The position numbers were made by a program, and so were the translations under genes. From NCBI RefSeq assembly GCF_017348835.2, contig NZ_CP071375.1: a stretch of DNA of 64,000 nt, one strand, 5' to 3'. Shown here piece after piece: positions 23,789 through 31,687 of this stretch. The notes under the pieces are model-generated. The model was not told the DNA's origin. It was given only the letters and a program-made list of their open reading frames with translations, and ran no database searches. The first letter of the stretch is position 1, and every line of letters begins with the position of its first letter. Origin of the DNA: Escherichia coli. GTDB taxonomy: Bacteria; Pseudomonadota; Gammaproteobacteria; Enterobacterales; Enterobacteriaceae.

Positions 23789-24493
23789 TTATCTCGTCAC
23801 CTTCCTCAATTGCGCTTCCGCGTATGCTTCTTCCTGCCAGCACTTTGTTACCAGTTTACCAATGACGTCAGCATACCCCTTATACCACTGATAATCGGTC
23901 AGGTCTGGTACCAGCTTCTGGACATGACGTCGTGCCAGCGTGGTCGGTAAACGACTAAACCGGTTTCCATTACAACGCCCACAAATCTTATATACCGGTA
24001 CGCCATGAAACCGGGTTCTTTTTTCATCCAGAACAATCCCTTTACCCTTACACCCTCTGCACGCTGTGCTGACTTCGCCCTTACCATGGCAATGCTGACA
24101 TAGTTCCTTTACCCATTCTTCCTTGATTACAGATTCCCCGCGTCTGTAGTGTTTCACCACTTCGCGCAATACATTATAAAATCCCGTACCTGAACAATGC
24201 TCACAGCGAGCCTTACTTGCCGCAGACCTAGAGTAATCAGCAAAGGCAAAATTCACGAGGTAAGGAATAATCTGTAACCGGATTTCTTCACTCAATTTGT
24301 TCAATGTCGGGTTATCCAGTGCCATCGCGTAATTTAGCAGGCCTTCAATCGCAAACTGAGGGTCCTGAACACCAACTTTTGCCAGAAATAAGGCCAACCC
24401 AAGTGGTGCTTTCGACTGCACCATCCCCTGCGCTGCCATTACATCCGTAATTGTTAAACAACCGGTGCCTGTCGCTGGAGCGTCATCGCTCAA
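23789..24493 (-). CDS. quuQ: Q-like late-gene antiterminator
   Basis: 234 aa with Cys-rich zinc-finger region (CEHCSGTG...CQHCHGKG...CRGCKGKG). Confidence 0.75.
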
Positions 24494-24555
24494 TTTTGGA
24501 GATTTTGGGGAGTTGAACCGCCCCGGGTTTCCTGGAGAGTGTTTTATCTGTGAAC

Positions 24556-25443
24556 TCAGGCTGCCAGATCATTATTTCCGATGGAAGCATAATAAGCTTT
24601 TTCTGCTTCTGCCGGAGGAATATGGCCCAGCCTTTCCAGCAATCGTCGATTGTTATACCAGTCCACCCACGTTAGTGTGGCCAGTTCCACTTCTGTCCGG
24701 TTTTTCCAGCTCTTACGGTGTATTACCTCCGCTTTGTAAAGACCATTGATGCTCTCAGCCATCGCGTTGTCATACGAGTCGCCAGTACTCCCTGTTGATG
24801 CCAGTAATCCGGCTTCCTTAAGCCGCTGCGTGTAGGCCAGCGATACATACTGAGAACCTTTATCACTGTGATGGATTGTGCCGGACGGCCGACGGGCCCA
24901 CAACGCCTGCTCCAGTGCATCCAGCACGAATGTTGTTTCCATGGATGATGAGACCTGCCATCCCACGATGTATCCGGCGAACACATCAATGATGAACGCC
25001 ACATAAACGAAGCCCTGCCATGTGCTTACCCAGGTAAAATCAGCCACCCACAACTGGTCTGGACGTTCTGCCACGAACTGACGGTTTACGCGGTCGCATG
25101 CGGCAACGGCTTTCCGGCTGACGGTAGTGCGGACCTTTTTACCCCGGAGAACACCGGCAAGTCCCATAACTGCCATGAGACGTGCCACAGTGCATCTGGC
25201 CACTCTGATACCTTCCCGTAACAACTGACGCCAGACTTTACGCACACCGTATACCTGGTGATTTTCATCGTATACGCGCTGTATCTCTTTCTTCAGCCAG
25301 TCATCGTGCTGCGCACGGGCACTGCGTTTATCCGGATGATGTCGCTGTTGCTGACAATGGTAATACGTTGACGGGGCAATATGCAGTTCGCTGCATACCG
25401 GTCCGACCCCGTACTGCTCACGCAGCTTATCCAGCAGTGGCAT
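24556..25443 (-). CDS. IS3-family transposase OrfB (DDE catalytic domain)
   Basis: 295 aa integrase-core ORF. Confidence 0.85.
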   Translation of the reverse strand: MPLLDKLREQYGVGPVCSELHIAPSTYYHCQQQRHHPDKRSARAQHDDWLKKEIQRVYDENHQVYGVRKVWRQLLREGIRVARCTVARLMAVMGLAGVLRGKKVRTTVSRKAVAACDRVNRQFVAERPDQLWVADFTWVSTWQGFVYVAFIIDVFAGYIVGWQVSSSMETTFVLDALEQALWARRPSGTIHHSDKGSQYVSLAYTQRLKEAGLLASTGSTGDSYDNAMAESINGLYKAEVIHRKSWKNRTEVELATLTWVDWYNNRRLLERLGHIPPAEAEKAYYASIGNNDLAA

Positions 25444-25769
25444 TATTTTTTCCAGAGGCGGTCGAACTCCGCCTTCGCAAAATAAGCGGAAGCCTGGCGA
25501 AGGATATCGTTACTGCGGCGCAGTTCACGATTTTCACGTTCCAGCTCTTTCAGACGCTGACGTTCAGCGGTGGTGAGTCCACCATCACCACTCCCGGTAT
25601 CCCGCTCATGCTGGCGAACCCAGACACGCAGAGTCTCCGGCGTACAGCCAATCTTTGGGGCAATGGAACAAATTGCCGCCCACTGTGAGTCATATTCATC
25701 CTGACTTTCCAGAACCATACGAATCGCCCGCTGACGGACTTCGGGGGAAAAACGAGTATTTTTAGTCAT
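25443..25769 (-). CDS. IS3-family transposase OrfA (HTH + leucine zipper)
   Basis: 108 aa, [33 protein letters not shown]... Confidence 0.85.
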
Positions 25770-25874
25770 CCTGTTTACCTCTTTCTCAGGGAGTTTAGTC
25801 TCCAGGATTTCCGGGGCGGTTCATTAAAGATTTTTTTGTGCATGCCGATAGTGCTTTTTTAAAAGGAGAAATCT

Positions 25875-26207
25875 ATGTCTGTCACAATTCAGGGAAATAC
25901 CTCAACCGTTATTTCAAACAACTCCGCCCCGGAAGGAACATCAGAAATAGCCAAAATCACAAGACAAATTCAGGTGCTGACTGAAAAGCTTGGGAAAATC
26001 TCATCGGAAGAGGGGATGACGACACAGCAGAAAAAAGAAATGGCTGCATTGGTACAGAAGCAAATTGAAAGCCTCAGGGCTCAACTGGAGCAGTTGTTAA
26101 GGCAGCAGGCAGAGAAAAAGAATGAAGACGCGACAGTTCAGCCTGATAAAAAAGAAGAGAAAAAAGACGATACAAATACCGCTGGCACCATTGATATTTA
26201 CGTCTAA
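25875..26207 (+). CDS. flxA: FlxA-like protein (110 aa)
   Basis: Length and coiled-coil-like sequence; Qin context. Confidence 0.6.
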   Translation: MSVTIQGNTSTVISNNSAPEGTSEIAKITRQIQVLTEKLGKISSEEGMTTQQKKEMAALVQKQIESLRAQLEQLLRQQAEKKNEDATVQPDKKEEKKDDTNTAGTIDIYV

Positions 26208-26221
26208 GTGACAGCCGTATT

Positions 26222-26244
26222 GTGGCCCTCATCGGGCCACTTTT
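26222..26244 (+). terminator. Rho-independent terminator after flxA
   Basis: gtggccc tcatc gggccac followed by TTTT. Confidence 0.65.
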
Positions 26245-26643
26245 CGCCATCAGCCTTTTCTTTAAAGACATATTATCTTTGTATCATTTCTGATAGTTAA
26301 CATTACAAGATATAAGTAATGGACGCACTCCCAATTAGTCTATTTAAATCGCCACGAGTTTAACTGACAACCCATGATCAATTATGAATTGCAACTATTT
26401 CTGTAGTCACTTTTGTGGGGACAGTCCACAAAACTGCCAACTTCCGCTTCTTGCTCTTAGCGGACATTAGCATAGGCTATTTACCATAACGCCTCATTAC
26501 GCGCACCGCCCAGACTGACTCAGCGCGTTTCTGGCATATCCCCGGTAAAACAAGTAACAAACCACCCGAAAATGAACACCAGAAACGCGACTTAAGAATC
26601 TACCCTATGAATGGATATGCACTCAACCGAATCGATCTTGGTT

Positions 26644-27985
26644 TCAATCTTTTTTATCGGGATCAGGCTTCTTTTTAGGTAACTTCGGGGGCTTAACTTG
26701 CTGATGACTTTGCGTTCGGCGCGTAAGCCAGGGATGGTCAGCTTTAGGTTTAACATAGTATTTTGAGCGTAAATCAATACGGGCATTATCCACTCGTTCA
26801 TGGACACTCTTTTCATCATCCAGTGGTATAGGCTCCGGGCCATCAACATACTTTTCCCAGCCCAGCGCTTTCCCGTCATACAGAACGTTAATTTCACCGT
26901 CAAAGTTCTCGCATACAGTAACAACCGAATGCCTAAGTCGATATCCCCGGCCCTCACTGCGTACCTGAAACGCACTGCTTTTGTACTGGAAAGTGAGATT
27001 TTTAGACAGAACGCGCTTCGCCTGTAGGCTGAAGATATAACCCAGTTCCTCTTCAGAATGGTGCACATCAAGATGAGCATTATCAGTAGTACGAGGCGAC
27101 GTAGCGAACCGGTTGTTATAGGCTTCAATAAAGGTCGGCAACCATGCATTTGCTGTTTCAATATCACTGATATTCTGAAGCCGCATTTCTTTGACCAGCC
27201 TGTCCTGTAGTGTCTGATTGGCGCGCTCTACCCGCCCTTTTGCCTGCGGGCTGTTGGCATGGATTGGCTCGATGCCCAGTGTCTTTATCGCACGAGTGAA
27301 CTGGGTCAGCTCACCTTCCCGCTCTGGGTTATTTACCCTGAATATACTGTGTCTATCAGAGTAGAGAGCGAGCGGTACGCCATGATCATTAAGGTAACCC
27401 CGGAGGGTTTCCATGTAAGCCCGGGTTGTTTCAGCAGGCACAAAACGCAACGCCATCAACGCACTGGTGGCATCATCAATGAAAACGATCAGTGTACATC
27501 TGGGGCCTCGATTTTCAAACCAGTCATGAGGTGAGCCATCAATCTGGATCAGTTCACCGTAAGATGGTCGTCGCATGCGGCGTTGATATATACGGGCAAT
27601 TTTACGACGGCGTTCACGCCATACCCCCCTCTTCTATCATCCACTTTCTGAGAGTTTCAACGGATAAAGATAAACCGTGTATCTCGCGCAATTTTTCGCA
27701 CGCAAACGTAGGTCCAAAATCAGCGTAACGGCCTTTGAGGAGTGAAATTACTGTTGCTCTGAATTCAGTAGAAAAGGAATTATTAGGACGCTTTCCACGT
27801 CGGTGGGAAACCAGACCAGAAGGCCCTTCATTTCTATACCGTTGCACCAGACGTTTAACCTGCCGAATAGAAATGCCAATGCGTGCCGCAGCTTGTTCCT
27901 GAGTAATATGTCGATTAATTGACTCCTGAATAATCTGAAGTCGGTGGAGTTCCTTATGACTCATCGTAACAGTTTCTTTGGTCAT
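26644..27985 (-). pseudogene. DDE transposase (integrase-core; IS481/ISNCY-like) split by a frameshift
   Basis: N-terminal HTH part 27614-27985 and catalytic part 26644-27576 are in different frames; junction at a C6/G6 run around 27624-27629. Confidence 0.65.
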
Positions 27986-29651
27986 GAAAAATCCCCCAGA
28001 GAATTGTCTGGGGACATTTTAGAATGGTTCAAAGGGGACATTACAGCTTGGTGTTAACAATAGCCTGCTTCTCCTTGCCTTTCGGCACGTAAGAGGCTAA
28101 CCTACATGTGTCTGGCATGAAATTGGCCTCAGATTAATGTTAAGCGTCTTGCAGGACGCGTAATGTTAACTGGGGCTTTTCTCTACCTGCCGTTGGTGTT
28201 CGTGCCCGAGGCAGATAGCCTCAAGCACCCGCAGTCATTCTACTTAACTAAGATTTCCCCGCAAACCGTTTTTGTCCAGCACAGTAAATATCCAACTAAA
28301 CCAATGGAGTTCGCTGTATTTACCGCCAGTATTCAATGCACATGACCGCCATGAACACCCCTAAAAAAAGGGCATTTATATATCCAAATATTAATATCAA
28401 AACATCAACTTTTTCCATATACCTTGCTGTGAAGATGATGGGCATACATGATGCGAACAACCAGAACGCAACAAACAAAAACTGCAATGCGTTTTTCATT
28501 ATTCCTCCTACAATCAATGTGCAATTACATTTAAACACACCTCAATTTGGCCGGACATATAAATATCTAAACCAGAAAAAATCACTTACATAGCGTTACA
28601 AACTCTTTAGTCTAAAGGTTCATCGTAAAACATTCCCCATACTTATCAGTCCGTTCCGCGCCAGGTAGCTCATTGCCTTATCTGGCAACCTGTAATCAGG
28701 TTTCCGCTTTTTCAGTTGGCTGGTCGTTTAACCGACATAGTTAACCCATTAATCTAGTTGCCGGATGTTGGTGGATTTTCGCGTTTTAGTTGTTCATAAA
28801 AGTGCACAGCTTTAACCAATTCTTCTGATGTAACCGGGACTGGTGAGGCAGTGAATAAGGCCTGAATTTGATAGTTCGGCCTGTCGTTACAATCCTCTTT
28901 TTTCGGTACATATTTCCAGTCACCAGACCACTACTTCCCCTGAAAGTCCGTAACGCCTTTTTTCACGTAGCGATATCGCCATGTCACTGGTTTTGCTTGC
29001 CCCGCCGTTTCATGCCCTTCCTGATAATTAATCTCGCTCATTCATCGCCCCACTCATCACAATATGCTTCGACCGGAGTTTTTCCCGCTTCATAGTCATC
29101 ACGCTAGGATTCGACATCAGCAGCACTTCCACCGCGTAACTCACCATAGTCCATTAATAGTTCATCCCGCTCTTCAAAACTGATGTTATATTTAGCTGAA
29201 CAAAAATCAGCCACTTTGTTCTTCCTCATCGTCTTTTATTTCGTGGTATGAGTAATTGCAGTAGTTAAAGAAAATTTCTTATGCTCCGTCATGAATTTCA
29301 TCAGGTGTTGCGTCATCGTCCACTTCGAATACATCCTCAAAATCTCCACCAGCTATTCCCGTTTCAATAATAATTTTGAACTTTCGCATTTCACTACCGC
29401 CCTTTCGGGCGGCCTCCTGATGTTCTGAGGGTGCAGAAATCCATCCGGTTAAGGATTAAGTTTTATTTACAGAACTGAATTTAATTATTCAGATATACGT
29501 ATCTGTAACCTTACGAATCTACTCACTGGATGCCTCTTTCATAAAAATAATCCAGTGGGTTTTATCGTTTTTTCCCTGTTCGTTGACAGATAACAGGCTT
29601 TCTATCTGTCAGTGCCAGAATCTGGCTTACCGGTATTTGCGTTTCATTCCA

Positions 29652-30008
29652 TTAAAAAATCAGAACGCCGTGCGGCCTCAACACCCGAAAAGCTTCTTTA
29701 AATCTCTGTCGCAAATCATCACGCCAGGCATCTTTATTCAGCCGTCCATATTTCTTTCCCATCCAGGCGTTATCACCAACACGCTCAAGATGCGGAGGGT
29801 CTAATACAACCATCGAAAAAGATGCGTCTGCAAATGATAATGCACGAAAATCTGCGATAATGTCAGGGCTGATAATCAAGCGTCTCCCATTGCGTAATGT
29901 GTATCCTTCTTTTCTGATATCGCTAAATATCGCCCGTTCGTCAGACTTATCGAACCAGAACATGCGGCTGCCACAGCACATATCAAGAATGGTTGCCGGT
30001 GCACTCAC
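29652..30008 (-). CDS. DNA methyltransferase fragment (DPPH-type motif)
   Basis: 118 aa with VVLDPPHL motif; short for a complete MTase. Confidence 0.45.
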   Translation of the reverse strand: MSAPATILDMCCGSRMFWFDKSDERAIFSDIRKEGYTLRNGRRLIISPDIIADFRALSFADASFSMVVLDPPHLERVGDNAWMGKKYGRLNKDAWRDDLRQRFKEAFRVLRPHGVLIF

Positions 30009-30535
30009 TGCGCCACGTCCTGAAAATTACCCTGATAGAAAGCCAGTATGCGCTGCATAACTTCGCTCTTCCGGCACTCGCGACAGATTATGTTTAGGCG
30101 ACTGTCGTAGCGACGTATTTCTCCGTCAGGTGATGACCAGATAAGGTCCGGATCAACCACAGCAGGTTTCTTCACCTTTGCCCTCGAGAGTTTTTTGCGG
30201 GCGTTTTGCCAGTCCTTACGCGCCTGTTCAGAGGGGAATAACCCGTATCTGATATCCCAAAAAATGAAACCGCACCGGAAGCTGAACCATCTGTAGAGCG
30301 TGAGGGGCCGTTCTATTTCCTCTTCGCAGATAAGGACGGAGAAAAATACGGTCGCGCAAACAAACTTTCTGGTCTGGATAAGGCACTGGCTGCTGGCGCC
30401 ACTGAAATCACAAAAGAAGAATATTTTGCCCGAAAAAATGGCACATACACGGGCTTACCGCAAAATGTAGATACCGCTGAAGATTCAGAACAACCAGAGC
30501 CGATAAAAGTTACCGCTGACGAAGTAAACAAAATT

Positions 30536-31615
30536 ATGCAGGCAGCCAATATCAGCCAGCCTGACGCCGATAAGTTGCTTGCTGCATCACGTGGTGAATT
30601 TGTTGAAGGGATTAGTGACCCGAATGATCCGAAATGGGTTAAGGGGATCCAGACCCGCGATTCTGTGAACCAGAACCAGCATGAATCGGAACGGAACTAC
30701 CAAAAAGCGGAACAAAACAGCCCAAATGCGTTACAAAACGAGCCAGAAACGAAACAGCCTGAATCAGTGGCGCAACAGGAAGTGGAAAAAGTCTGCACCG
30801 CCTGCGGTCAGACCGGCGGCGGCAACTGCCCTGATTGTGGCGCGGTGATGGGCGACGCAACATACCAAGAAACATTCGATGAAGAGTATCAGGTTGAAGT
30901 TCAGGAAGATGATCCGGAGGAAATGGAAGGCGCTGAACATCCACACAAGGAGAACGCTGGCGGCAATCAGCATCACGATAGCGATAATGAAACTGGCGAG
31001 ACGGCAGATCACTCAATTAAGGTGAACGGTCATCACGAAATCACATCCACCAGCAGGACGTGTGACCATCTAATGATCGACCTTGAAACCATGGGAAAAA
31101 ATCCTGATGCCCCGATCATCTCAATAGGTGCAATATTTTTCGATCCGCAAACCGGAGATATGGGACCGGAATTTAGTAAGACTATCGATCTGGAAACTGC
31201 TGGCGGAGTCATTGATCGGGACACCATTAAATGGTGGCTTAAGCAATCACGCGAAGCGCAATCGGCCATTATGACCGATGAAATCCCGTTAGATGATGCA
31301 CTGTTACAATTGCGGGAATTTATCGACGAAAACTCCGGTGAATTTTTTGTTCAGGTTTGGGGAAATGGAGCCAACTTCGACAACACGATTTTGCGCCGTT
31401 CATACGAACGGCAGGGGATCCCCTGCCCGTGGCGTTACTACAACGATCGCGATGTACGCACAATCGTTGAGCTGGGGAAAGCCATAGACTTCGATGCCAG
31501 AACGGCTATTCCATTCGAAGGTGAGCGCCATAATGCACTTGATGACGCCCGTTACCAGGCAAAATACGTTTCAGTTATCTGGCAAAAACTGATCCCGAGT
31601 CAGGCTGATTCTTAA
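30536..31615 (+). CDS. Prophage protein with C-terminal DEDDh-type 3'-5' exonuclease domain
   Basis: MIDLETMG... and HNALDDARY motifs; acidic low-complexity N-region; the frame is open upstream without an ATG. Confidence 0.6.
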
Positions 31616-31687
31616 TGTTCAACTGTCGCCGGTTGTGACTGGTATTCTGCAACCGGCGCTCGTCTGATGTAAGAGATAAAGAAATCG

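What the first reader, a model, noticed from the sequence alone, without database searches (positions are those of the whole stretch)
28000..29650. Gene-poor 1.6 kb stretch inside the prophage with a 9 bp inverted repeat
No ORF above ~85 codons occurs for ~1.6 kb, and the MTase-like ORF after it is short. TGACAGATA N9 TATCTGTCA at 29585-29611 has no U-run on either side, so it looks more like a protein-binding site than a terminator. The region may be decayed early genes or may encode small RNAs.
Basis: seen in the sequence. Interest (0 to 1): 0.3.

Follow-up and report, generated by a model that had tools for sequence, protein, structure and literature searches.

The report
Decayed prophage genes beside a severed hok/sok locus
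The "empty" 1.6 kb is mostly dead prophage genes, and its inverted repeat is a by-product of old coding sequence, but its left edge holds the regulatory half of a hok/sok toxin-antitoxin locus cut off at the toxin's start codon by a relBE-carrying transposon that appears to target hok genes specifically.

Summary
The stretch is the segment between the replication genes and Q of a Qin-type defective prophage, read on the minus strand. It contains a SAM-methyltransferase pseudogene (Lys-to-stop plus a +1 A), three more pseudogenes, one intact but poorly supported 59-codon ORF, and a full-length hok mRNA leader with its sok antisense gene (Rfam RF01794, 99.8 bits). The repeat lies inside the dead methyltransferase (codons LTDRKPVICQ). 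In 82 homologous genes the arms pair at only 4-8 of 9 positions, so it is not a conserved binding site. The hok leader stops two bases into the hok start codon, where "ISEsa1" begins. Four complete copies elsewhere carry locus-specific 16-bp target duplications. They show that ISEsa1 is the left arm of a 3.3-12.8 kb IS1202-family transposon that ends in relBE and inserts at hok start codons. In Qin this insertion created the relB-relE-hokD arrangement seen in K-12. In this window the transposase is frameshifted and the right half, including hokD, has been deleted. The flagged features are ordinary; the transposon reading seems undescribed.

The parts
26439..28059 (-). Left arm of the transposon (the segment catalogued as ISEsa1, IS1202 family). 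Terminal inverted repeat at 28032-28059 (5'-TGTTAACACCAAGCTGTAATGTCCCCTT on the minus strand). Transposase gene 27985-26644, split into 123-aa and 310-aa ORFs by one extra G at 27629.
   Evidence: 99.5% identical over 1621 bp to plasmid copies that encode an intact 446-aa transposase. HTH and rve_3 domains. RefSeq labels it 'IS1202-like element ISEsa1 family transposase'.
28060..28075 (.). Left copy of the 16-bp target-site duplication: AGGAGAAGCAGGCTAT on the minus strand, i.e. the hok Shine-Dalgarno plus 'AT' of the start codon.
   Evidence: In IAI1, K-12 and L094 the same 16-mer recurs directly after the right inverted repeat and before the G of the hokD ATG. An uninterrupted phage locus (640R1) has it once.
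28060..28230 (-). hok mRNA leader, complete from its 5' end to the hok start codon, where it is severed (AT|TGTTAAC).
   Evidence: Rfam RF01794, 99.8 bits, E=1.7e-22, model positions 1-157 of 157, with the final AUG aligned to AUU. Homology to all intact hok loci ends at 28060.
28041..28118 (-). Truncated mok reading frame: the ATG at 28118-28116 is retained, the frame runs into the IS and stops at TAA 28043-28041 (25 codons).
   Evidence: Position corresponds to the mokW start annotated in phage 933W (alignment). Translation read from the sequence.
28075..28180 (+). sok antisense RNA gene: -35 TTGCCT 28075-28080, -10 TAACCT 28098-28103, and the transcript at about 28110-28180, ending in a long hairpin followed by a U-run.
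   Evidence: Coordinates transferred from the sokW feature of phage 933W (L004 851-921). The promoter segment is identical to 933W. Fold is -30.3 kcal/mol, z = -5.4. Transcription itself was not tested.
28237..28264 (-). Putative hok promoter (-35 TTGCGG 28264-28259, -10 TAGAAT 28242-28237), placed 7 nt upstream of the leader's 5' end.
   Evidence: Read from the sequence relative to position 1 of the Rfam model. This is an inference.
28320..28499 (-). Intact 59-codon ORF (MKNALQFLF...EYWR), hydrophobic, with AGGAGG 7 nt upstream of the ATG. Its status as a gene is uncertain.
   Evidence: One nucleotide (one residue, Ala to Val) different from the copy in phage 640R1. No Pfam or PHROG family. 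Only Escherichia/Shigella relatives at 74% identity or more, many of them truncated.
28620..29041 (-). Pseudogene of a hypothetical protein, with an internal TAG at 28933-28931 and a frame change in an A-run at about 28964. A 57-bp indel relative to 640R1 lies at 28707-28763.
   Evidence: RefSeq: 'frameshifted; internal stop'. Alignment and three-frame translation.
29038..29214 (-). Pseudogene of a phrog_519-type small protein: ATG changed to GTG at the start and TGG changed to TAG at 29107-29105.
   Evidence: The 640R1 homolog is an open 58-aa ORF matching phrog_519 (E=4.5e-23). Lesions.
29207..29389 (-). DUF7167 pseudogene: AAA changed to TAA at 29281-29279 (codon 37 of 60).
   Evidence: RefSeq: 'DUF7167 family protein; internal stop'. 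The intact 640R1 copy matches PF23768 (E=7.9e-15) and phrog_1997 (E=9e-31). Lesion.
29519..30008 (-). SAM-dependent (DNA) methyltransferase pseudogene: Lys codon changed to TAA at 29654-29652 (codon 119), one extra A in the A-run at 29568-29573, original stop at 29521-29519.
   Evidence: 82% identical over 142 aa to an intact 160-aa Klebsiella-phage enzyme, reading through the stop, with the last 16 aa in the +1 frame. phrog_954 DNA methyltransferase, E=3.8e-84 for the intact relative. RefSeq: 'frameshifted; internal stop'.
29584..29611 (.). The flagged inverted repeat TGACAGATA-N10-TATCTGTCA, which is codons L-T-D-R-K-P-V-I-C-Q of the dead methyltransferase.
   Evidence: Arms pair at 4-8 of 9 positions in 27 distinct homologous sequences from 82 loci, and at 9 of 9 only here.
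30005..30247 (-). C-terminal third of a DUF977/LygF gene (ORF 30005-30175), ending at a deletion junction (30245-30247) that joins it to the interior of the exonuclease gene.
   Evidence: PF06163 positions 82-134 of 134. BLAST against IAI1: window 25823-30247 matches L001 3834-8258, then window 30245-30437 matches L001 13479-13671.

Best explanation
The interval has no single function. It is the decaying segment between the replication genes and Q of a Qin/Kim-type defective lambdoid prophage, transcribed on the minus strand. Four genes (methyltransferase, DUF7167, a phrog_519-type gene and a hypothetical gene) are inactivated by point lesions. One 59-codon ORF is still open. The 9-bp inverted repeat is an accident of the methyltransferase's coding sequence. 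[quoted passage not shown] It was separated from its toxin gene when an IS1202-family transposon inserted at the hok Shine-Dalgarno/start codon and duplicated 16 bp. That transposon has the transposase segment known as ISEsa1 as its left arm, variable cargo in the middle, and relB-relE plus the other inverted repeat as its right arm. The insertion leaves the hok coding sequence, with its duplicated Shine-Dalgarno, directly downstream of relBE. This is the relB-relE-hokD (relBEF) arrangement of K-12. In this window the transposase then acquired a frameshift, and an IS3-family element replaced the right half (ydfV, relBE, hokD, rem, ydfU). Only the toxin-less sok/leader half remains. Shown by the data: the identities, lesions, junctions and duplications. 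Inferred: that sok and the leader are still transcribed, the order of events, and that the transposase itself recognises the hok initiation region.
For: Context and pseudogenes: the region is 100% identical to IAI1 and many other genomes, where RefSeq annotates three pseudogenes. Lesions were mapped against intact phage 640R1 and intact methyltransferases.

hok/sok: full-length RF01794 hit at 99.8 bits. Every intact hok-bearing phage starts matching at window 28060. The sok promoter segment is identical to the annotated sokW of 933W, and the Sok fold has z = -5.4.

Repeat: it lies in codons LTDRKPVICQ. It pairs 8 of 9 in PhiR42_1 and 4-8 of 9 in 82 homologs. The hexamers it shares with a nearby small repeat are lineage-specific.

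Transposon: the best match to the left end in 6 kb of IAI1 lies exactly at the hokD junction (21 of 28). Four complete elements have perfect 16-bp duplications that differ with the host hok locus: AGGAGAAGCAGGCTAT (Qin), AGGAGAAGTCAGCTAT (Phytobacter IncF plasmid), AGGAGAAAAAGGCTAT (Klebsiella IncHI1B plasmid) and AGGAGAAGAAGGCCAT (Enterobacter IncFII/R plasmid). Each is followed by a different Hok. Two further left junctions sit at hok ATGs in Kluyvera and Pseudocitrobacter. The three plasmid copies are all 12,842 bp. The Qin and plasmid versions share a 1621-bp left arm and a 711-bp right arm. K-12 retains the right junction and lacks the flagged stretch. relBE and relF/hokD are co-transcribed (PMC3598666).
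Against: No expression data were available, so activity of sok, the leader and the 59-codon ORF is unknown. One copy of the left end (Enterobacter sp. Ag1, L091) is not next to a hok leader, so targeting is not absolute, or that copy has been rearranged. Left junctions vary by one base (AT| versus ATG|, and one ATT|). The substitutions that made the repeat perfect include a both-arm change (C-G to A-T). That could hint at weak lineage-specific selection for pairing. ACAGATA is about 3-fold over-represented in the window. The published IS1202-family survey reports no duplication and no target for ISEsa1 (PMC10132070); I interpret this as a consequence of delimiting only the left arm.
Confidence: 0.88

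Rival explanations
1. The 9-bp inverted repeat is a functional protein-binding site (operator or recombination site).
For: It is a perfect 9-bp repeat with a 10-nt spacer and no terminator tail. Local chance expectation is only about 0.08. A second small repeat 90 bp away reuses CAGATA/TATCTG. The lineage shows a both-arm change that preserves pairing.
Against: It lies inside former coding sequence. The arms pair at 4-8 of 9 positions in 82 homologs, and the baseline complementarity follows from the conserved peptide T-D...I-x-Q. A 99.1%-identical phage already has a mismatch. In close relatives that keep the neighbouring intergenic repeat, the intragenic arms do not share its hexamers. Other ACAGATA copies in the window are never in inverted pairs. 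The feature was picked by eye because it is perfect, which is a selection bias.
Confidence: 0.04
2. The orphaned sok gene, with the toxin-less hok leader, is retained because it is useful. For example, it might neutralise hok mRNAs of incoming related phages or plasmids, or regulate transcription entering the transposase gene.
For: The sok promoter and the whole Sok hairpin are intact and identical or near-identical to an annotated functional-type locus. The insertion point is 15 bp outside the -35 element. The leader is full length, with no lesions relative to 933W or 640R1 beyond ordinary divergence. The hok promoter would read into the transposase gene.
Against: The 100% identity among genomes reflects recent common descent, not demonstrated selection. 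K-12 has lost the whole segment without known consequence. Neighbouring sequences are decaying. There are no expression data. Sok action is sequence-specific, and the Sok 5' region differs between loci.
Confidence: 0.15
3. The short ORFs are real, functional small genes (a micro-protein cluster) and not pseudogenes.
For: Several short minus-strand ORFs begin at the ancestral start codons. The 59-codon ORF is open, has a strong ribosome-binding site and is annotated as a hypothetical protein in some genomes.
Against: Each broken ORF aligns beyond its stop to a longer intact homolog. RefSeq calls them pseudogenes. The 59-codon ORF has no family, a narrow distribution and many truncated variants.
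Confidence: 0.07
4. ISEsa1 is a genuine 1.6-kb insertion sequence, and the flanking 16-bp repeats arise from homologous recombination between hok loci, not from transposition of a larger element.
For: ISfinder lists ISEsa1 as 1609 bp with 15/22 inverted repeats (PMC10132070). hok loci are repeated and could recombine. One copy is not at a hok site.
Against: The duplicated 16-mers are perfect within each element yet differ between elements, in step with the host hok allele on both sides. The three plasmid elements have identical length (12,842 bp) in three different hok loci and plasmid types. The right end forms a 21/28 inverted repeat with the left end, with TGT...ACA termini. The 1.6-kb segment has no detectable duplication of its own.
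Confidence: 0.05

Closest known systems
[quoted passage not shown]
   Same: Full-length hok mRNA leader by covariance model. mok start and sok promoter/hairpin at the positions annotated in 933W. The uninterrupted sister locus in phage 640R1 encodes a Hok that differs from HokD at one nucleotide (one residue).
   Different: There is no toxin gene. The leader ends two bases into the hok start codon, and mok is truncated to 25 codons that run into the IS. It is therefore a remnant and not a working toxin-antitoxin system.
relBEF (relB-relE-hokD) operon of the E. coli K-12 Qin prophage
   Same: Same prophage type. In IAI1, which is identical to the window over the flagged stretch, relBE-hokD lies 3.3 kb away at the other end of the same transposon. 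K-12 has the identical right junction.
   Different: The window has lost relBE and hokD to an IS3-associated deletion. K-12 has lost the half that the window retains. From my own recollection of Pedersen & Gerdes 1999 (not consulted here), hokD was known to lack sok, mok and the upstream elements. The cause proposed here, a transposon insertion with a 16-bp duplication, was not found in the searchable literature.
IS1202 family (ISNCY) insertion sequences, including ISEsa1 and the dif-targeting ISAjo2 group
   Same: A 446-aa transposase with N-terminal HTH domains and an rve-type catalytic domain. Termini 5'-TGT...ACA-3' and an imperfect terminal inverted repeat of about 28 bp. A long 16-bp duplication, as in the IS1202 subgroup that makes 16-28 bp duplications. 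Target specificity has a precedent in the ISAjo2 group (PMC10132070).
   Different: ISEsa1 is catalogued as 1609 bp with no duplication and no target. Here the mobile unit is 3.3-12.8 kb, carries cargo (flxA-ydfV, or nickel and chromate resistance) plus relBE, makes a 16-bp duplication and inserts at hok start codons, not at dif sites.
Tn7-like site-specific transposons
   Same: The transposase family is modelled on TnsB, with TGT/ACA ends (PMC10132070). The element carries cargo and inserts in one orientation at a defined conserved site.
   Different: A single transposase gene, with no TnsC/D/E-type partners seen in the 3.3-kb version. The duplication is 16 bp, not 5 bp. The target is a toxin gene's translation-initiation region, which is inactivated as a regulated unit, and not a neutral attachment site.
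Phage-encoded small SAM-dependent DNA methyltransferases (phrog_954)
   Same: 82% identity over 142 residues to an intact 160-aa Klebsiella-phage enzyme. Same position after DUF977/LygF.
   Different: Premature stop at codon 119 and a +1 frameshift, so it is non-functional here.

Membership tests
[quoted passage not shown] | hok mRNA 5' leader with the conserved fold | tested here: met
   RF01794, 99.8 bits against a gathering score of 59, model positions 1-157 of 157.
[quoted passage not shown] | Antisense sok gene with its own promoter and terminator hairpin | tested here: met
   Promoter segment identical to phage 933W, where sokW is annotated. Hairpin at -30.3 kcal/mol, z = -5.4, followed by a U-run. 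Expression was not tested.
[quoted passage not shown] | Hok toxin coding sequence (about 50 aa) downstream of the leader | tested here: not met
   Homology ends at AT| of the start codon. No hokD is present at the position it occupies in IAI1, and BLAST against IAI1 shows that segment is deleted from the window.
[quoted passage not shown] | mok reading frame overlapping hok | tested here: not met
   The start codon is retained at 28118, but the frame runs into the IS and stops after 25 codons.
IS1202 family transposable element | Large DDE transposase (about 440-460 aa) with N-terminal HTH domains | tested here: met
   Intact copies encode 446 aa. The window copy is 99.7% identical to them but frameshifted at 27629. 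HTH_28/HTH_32 and rve_3 domains.
IS1202 family transposable element | Imperfect terminal inverted repeats with outer 5'-TGT ... ACA-3' | tested here: met
   Left end TGTTAACACC...; right end ...GCGTTGAC(A). 21 of 28 bases match, and the best hit in 6 kb falls exactly at the junction. The window itself has only the left end.
IS1202 family transposable element | Flanking target-site duplication | tested here: met
   Perfect 16-bp duplications in four complete copies, each matching its own hok locus. This contrasts with 'none detected' for the 1609-bp ISEsa1 entry. In the window only the left copy survives.
Site-specific (target-selecting) transposon | Independent insertions at the same position of a conserved target | tested here: met
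   Six different hok leaders are interrupted within 0-1 nt of the start codon. One exception (L091) is at a non-hok site. The mechanism of recognition cannot be tested with these tools.
Intrinsic (Rho-independent) terminator, for the 29584-29611 repeat | G+C-rich stem followed by a U-run | tested here: not met
   The stem has 3 G-C pairs out of 9, the loop is 10 nt, and no T-run follows on either strand.
Operator or protein-binding palindrome, for the 29584-29611 repeat | Conservation of the dyad symmetry among related elements and location in a regulatory region | tested here: not met
   It lies inside coding sequence. It pairs 4-8 of 9 in 82 homologs and 8 of 9 in a 99%-identical phage. Binding itself cannot be tested here.
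SAM-dependent DNA methyltransferase (phrog_954 / Methyltransf_11) | Uninterrupted reading frame of about 155-160 aa | tested here: not met
   Stop at codon 119 and a +1 frameshift. RefSeq marks it as a pseudogene.
DUF7167 (PF23768) | Uninterrupted reading frame of about 60 aa | tested here: not met
   AAA changed to TAA at codon 37. The intact 640R1 copy matches at E=7.9e-15.

The most novel reading that the evidence does not exclude
'ISEsa1' is not a 1.6-kb insertion sequence. It is the left arm of a family of cargo-carrying IS1202-family transposons (3.3 kb with flxA-ydfV; 12.8 kb with nickel and chromate resistance). These insert in one orientation at the Shine-Dalgarno/start codon of hok toxin genes and duplicate 16 bp. 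They carry relBE at the right end, so the captured hok coding sequence becomes the third gene of a relBE operon while its own promoter, leader and sok antitoxin are stranded on the other side. On this reading the classical relBEF operon of E. coli K-12 is the right junction of such an insertion into the Qin prophage. The flagged stretch holds the left junction, which K-12 has lost. The element would be a transposon that disarms one addiction module and substitutes its own.
Probability: 0.55. Interest if true: 0.65.

Novelty: new variant of a known kind. Interest (0 to 1): 0.45.

Why it matters
The flagged features themselves (a gene-poor stretch and an inverted repeat) are ordinary prophage decay. 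They would not matter beyond correcting the annotation, since sok and the hok leader are not annotated in RefSeq here.

The left junction matters more, for four reasons.

- It gives a concrete origin for the long-known oddity that hokD/relF lacks sok, mok and its upstream control elements and is co-transcribed with relBE.
- It suggests that ISEsa1, reported as having no duplication and no target, has been mis-delimited. It would belong to the long-duplication, target-selecting part of the IS1202 family.
- It identifies a mobile element that spreads nickel and chromate resistance among IncF, IncHI1B and IncR plasmids by homing to hok/sok loci, which nearly all large enterobacterial plasmids carry.
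- It offers a testable case of one mobile element replacing the addiction system of its carrier with its own.

Tried and rejected
1. I expected the missing hok coding sequence to be on the other side of the IS or near relBE in the window. The alignment failed, and the ORF list showed that the window has an IS3-family element and a Q fragment there instead. The test was moved to IAI1, where it succeeded.

2. A permissive Rfam scan (E<=1) of 26000-31000 found no RNA family other than sok. The only other hit was a chance snoRNA match below threshold.

3. The promoter-like scan was not enriched (4 found against 5.1 expected). It does not detect the sok promoter, whose -10 matches the consensus at only 3 of 6 positions. 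Terminator-like hits (5 against 1.9 expected) include one on the plus strand at 28687-28712 that is not conserved in 640R1.

4. The 59-aa ORF and the 85-aa ORF gave no Pfam or PHROG family.

5. I considered whether the repeat plus the nearby CAGATA-N4-TATCTG form an operator cluster. I rejected this because relatives that keep the intergenic repeat lack the hexamers in the gene, and no other inverted ACAGATA pairs occur in the window.

6. A literature search combining ncrA, chrA, relE, hok and ISNCY returned only irrelevant papers because of prefix matching. Searches on ISEsa1 and on hokD/relBEF found no description of hok targeting. Pedersen & Gerdes 1999 is not in the library, and what I say about it rests on my own recollection.

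7. The species-representative genome scan for the exact left end returned only four loci. That was too few for statistics, and their stored flanks were too short to reach the right ends in Kluyvera and Pseudocitrobacter.
Full report
**Observation.** The stretch 28000-29650 is ORF-poor. The longest ORFs are 85, 75, 73 and 72 codons, on mixed strands. The inverted repeat is real, but it sits at 29584-29592 and 29603-29611 with a 10-nt spacer, not N9 from 29585. It has no T-run on either side and is not picked up by the terminator scan. A perfect repeat of this kind is expected about 0.08 times in 1.65 kb (P about 0.07). The whole window has 17 against 3 expected. The repeat is therefore only mildly unusual, and it was selected by eye.

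**Where this is.** The segment is 100% identical to E. coli IAI1 and many other genomes; 1213 genomes carry a match covering at least 80% of it. It lies in a Qin/Kim-type defective lambdoid prophage. It sits between the replication-region genes (DUF977/LygF, an O-like gene, ydaT, dicC) and flxA, relBE, hokD, rem, ydfU and ydfT(Q). All of the operon in question is read on the minus strand. It is therefore the segment between the replication genes and Q, not the early-left region. RefSeq already marks three pseudogenes in identical genomes:

- a hypothetical protein, window 28620-29041
- DUF7167, window 29207-29389
- a SAM-dependent methyltransferase, window 29519-29963

**Gene remnants.** Phage vB_EcoS-640R1 carries a largely intact version of the segment, in this order: LygF, a 137-aa ORF, ORFs of 60, 58 and 85 aa, mok/hok, a rem-like gene, ydfU, rusA, Q. 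Aligning it with the window and translating locates the lesions.

- The methyltransferase has AAA changed to TAA at 29654-29652 (codon 119) and one extra A in the run at 29568-29573. Its original stop is at 29521-29519. Intact relatives are 155-160 aa, and the window copy is 82% identical to one of them when read through the stop.
- DUF7167 has AAA changed to TAA at 29281-29279.
- The phrog_519-type ORF has ATG changed to GTG at the start and TGG changed to TAG at 29107-29105.
- The next gene has an internal TAG (28933-28931) and a frame change in an A-run near 28964.
- The ORF at 30005-30175 is only the C-terminal third of DUF977.
- One ORF of 59 codons (28499-28320) is open and has an AGGAGG ribosome-binding site. 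It has no Pfam or PHROG family, and its only relatives are in Escherichia and Shigella, many of them truncated. I leave its status open.

**The inverted repeat.** It spells codons L-T-D-R-K-P-V-I-C-Q of the dead methyltransferase. In 82 homologous genes (27 distinct sequences) the two arms pair at 4-8 of 9 positions, and that baseline follows from the conserved peptide. The 99.1%-identical phage PhiR42_1 has 8 of 9. Only this lineage has 9 of 9, through ACC to ACA, GGT to TGT (Gly to Cys) and GAC to GAT.

A second small repeat (CAGATA-N4-TATCTG, 29490-29505) reuses the same hexamers. However, relatives that keep that intergenic repeat have TGACCGACA/TATCGGTCA in the gene, so the sharing is lineage-specific. 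ACAGATA is about 3-fold over-represented window-wide, but it forms no other inverted pairs. I conclude the repeat is a by-product of coding sequence. A lineage-specific role cannot be strictly excluded, and I put it at about 4%.

**The small-RNA part.** Rfam places a full-length match to RF01794 (sok/hok leader; 99.8 bits, E=1.7e-22) at 28059-28230 on the minus strand. By transfer from the annotated hokW/mokW/sokW of phage 933W:

- the mok start is at 28118
- the sok promoter is TTGCCT (28075-28080) and TAACCT (28098-28103)
- Sok spans about 28110-28180 on the plus strand

Sok folds into a long hairpin followed by a U-run (-30.3 kcal/mol, z = -5.4). A plausible hok promoter lies at 28237-28264. 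No other RNA family matched at E<=1.

**The severed toxin.** All hok-bearing phages begin to match at window 28060. The alignment shows the leader running to ...AAGGAGAAGCAGGCTAT and then switching to TGTTAACACC..., where intact loci continue G-AAG-CAG... (Hok). The new sequence is the end of 'ISEsa1', an IS1202-family element.

In IAI1 the hokD gene, 3.3 kb away and just after relBE, is preceded by ...GCGTTGAC|AGGAGAAGCAGGCTAT|G. This is the same 16-mer. The bases before it are the best match in 6 kb to the left end in inverted orientation, 21 of 28 starting at base 1. The unit bounded by these ends is 3,301 bp. It contains the transposase, flxA, ydfV, relB and relE.

**Independent insertions.** Three plasmids carry a 12,842-bp version. 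It has the same 1,621-bp left arm (99.5% identical) and 711-bp right arm (relB-relE plus the inverted repeat; 98.7%), with nickel (ncrABCY) and chromate (chrBA) resistance genes between them. Each is inserted in a different hok locus, with a perfect 16-bp duplication that matches that locus:

| Host | 16-bp duplication | Hok begins |
|---|---|---|
| Phytobacter IncF plasmid | AGGAGAAGTCAGCTAT | MKLPRST... |
| Klebsiella IncHI1B plasmid | AGGAGAAAAAGGCTAT | MKLPPSN... |
| Enterobacter IncFII/R plasmid | AGGAGAAGAAGGCCAT | MKLPRNT... |

The Phytobacter leader is an independent, divergent hok leader (Rfam 106.5 bits). Two more left junctions lie directly after the ATG of yet other hok leaders, in Kluyvera and Pseudocitrobacter. 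One copy, in Enterobacter sp. Ag1, is not at a hok site.

The published IS1202-family survey lists ISEsa1 as 1609 bp with 15/22 inverted repeats, no duplication and no known target (PMC10132070). The data here indicate that entry describes only the left arm of a larger, hok-targeting transposon. I found no description of this in the searchable literature. That search cannot cover subscription journals, ISfinder or TnCentral.

**Consequences.** The insertion strands the hok promoter, leader, mok start and sok on the left. It places the hok coding sequence, with its duplicated Shine-Dalgarno, directly downstream of relBE on the right. This matches the relBEF operon, in which relF/hokD is co-transcribed with relBE (PMC3598666). 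It also matches the absence of sok, mok and upstream elements at hokD, which I recall from Pedersen & Gerdes 1999 (not consulted here). K-12 MG1655 has the identical right junction but lacks the equivalent of window 26829-31655, so it has lost the entire flagged stretch and the left junction. ydfW is the C-terminal 49 codons of the transposase.

**State in this window.** The transposase carries one extra G at 27629, which splits it into 123-aa and 310-aa ORFs. An IS3-family element (24514-25822) replaces ydfV, relBE, hokD, rem, ydfU and the 5' part of Q. A second deletion (junction at 30245-30247) removes everything from the N-terminus of DUF977 to the interior of the exonuclease gene, including the dicA/dicC immunity region. 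What remains between these scars is the flagged stretch: a toxin-less sok/leader half and a row of dead genes.

**Verdict.** It is wrong about the repeat. The flagged features are ordinary and largely already annotated. The added value is the recognition of the orphan sok/hok leader and of the hok-targeting, relBE-bearing IS1202-family transposon whose left junction lies at 28059/28060.

Noticed in passing
window 23820-25822: An IS3-family element (orfA 25443-25769, orfB 24556-25443; about 1309 bp, 24514-25822) abuts a 3' fragment of the Q antiterminator gene ydfT (23820-24513). Relative to IAI1 it replaces ydfV, relB, relE, hokD, rem, ydfU and the 5' part of ydfT.
   Followed up: partly
window 30245-30247 and 30536-31615: A deletion junction joins the DUF977 fragment to the interior of the long exonuclease gene. 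The 359-aa ORF at 30536-31615 is therefore only its C-terminal part. The prophage here lacks the O-like gene, ydaT, dicC, dicA, ydfABC, dicF, dicB and ydfD, so it has no immunity region.
   Followed up: partly
window 29397-29412 (minus strand): A G+C-rich hairpin GCCGCCC-GAAA-GGGCGG(T), with a GAAA loop and no U-run, lies just upstream of the DUF7167 start. It is conserved in 640R1 and in many related loci. Its function is unknown; it could be an RNA-stability or processing element.
   Followed up: no
window 29475-29508: A conserved intergenic module after the methyltransferase stop contains two small inverted repeats: CTGAAT-N6-ATTCAG and CAGATA-N4-TATCTG. It is present in about 18 close relatives.
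   Followed up: partly
whole window: The heptamer ACAGATA occurs 16 times against 5.5 expected, and none of 100 shuffles reached 16. Apart from the three copies at 29500-29609, the copies are dispersed and not in inverted pairs. The cause is unknown; it may be oligonucleotide or codon bias.
   Followed up: partly
window 28687-28763: A plus-strand terminator-like hairpin (AACCTGTAATCAGGTT followed by TCCGCTTTTT) overlaps a 57-bp segment (28707-28763) that is absent from phage 640R1. The indel is bounded by short CGG(C/A)AAC repeats.
   Followed up: no
L003 3171-3428 (phage vB_EcoS-640R1): The annotated 85-aa ORF of the 'intact' comparator is basic and of low complexity, and it differs in frame from the more protein-like frame of the window copy. 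The comparator may itself be frameshifted there, so the ancestral reading frame of this gene is uncertain.
   Followed up: no
L006 (Enterobacter asburiae plasmid pEnt261) 1457-4479: This plasmid carries the short, Qin-type cargo (ydfV-relB) behind ISEsa1. Its hok leader is plasmid-type (AGGAGAAGAAGGCCAT) and is cut down to about 70 nt by ISKpn8. This may be a further insertion event or a recombinant.
   Followed up: partly
L091 (Enterobacter sp. Ag1) 3765: Here the left end of the element abuts a non-hok sequence (after a terminator-like hairpin, near dnaX). It is an exception to hok targeting, or a rearranged copy.
   Followed up: no
L094 (JAIJJM010000167.1, labelled 'MAG: Collinsella sp.'): This 5.5-kb contig holds the Qin-type hok leader, the complete transposon (3,273 bp here) and the start of hokD, all closely matching the IAI1 Qin prophage. 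The contig is very probably mis-binned Escherichia DNA.
   Followed up: no
L096 17017 / L092 / L093 left junctions: The left junction varies by one base between insertions...TAT|TGTT in Qin, Phytobacter and Klebsiella...CATT|TGTT in E. hormaechei...ATG|TGTT in Kluyvera and Pseudocitrobacter. This may reflect 16-bp versus 17-bp duplications or small changes after insertion.
   Followed up: no
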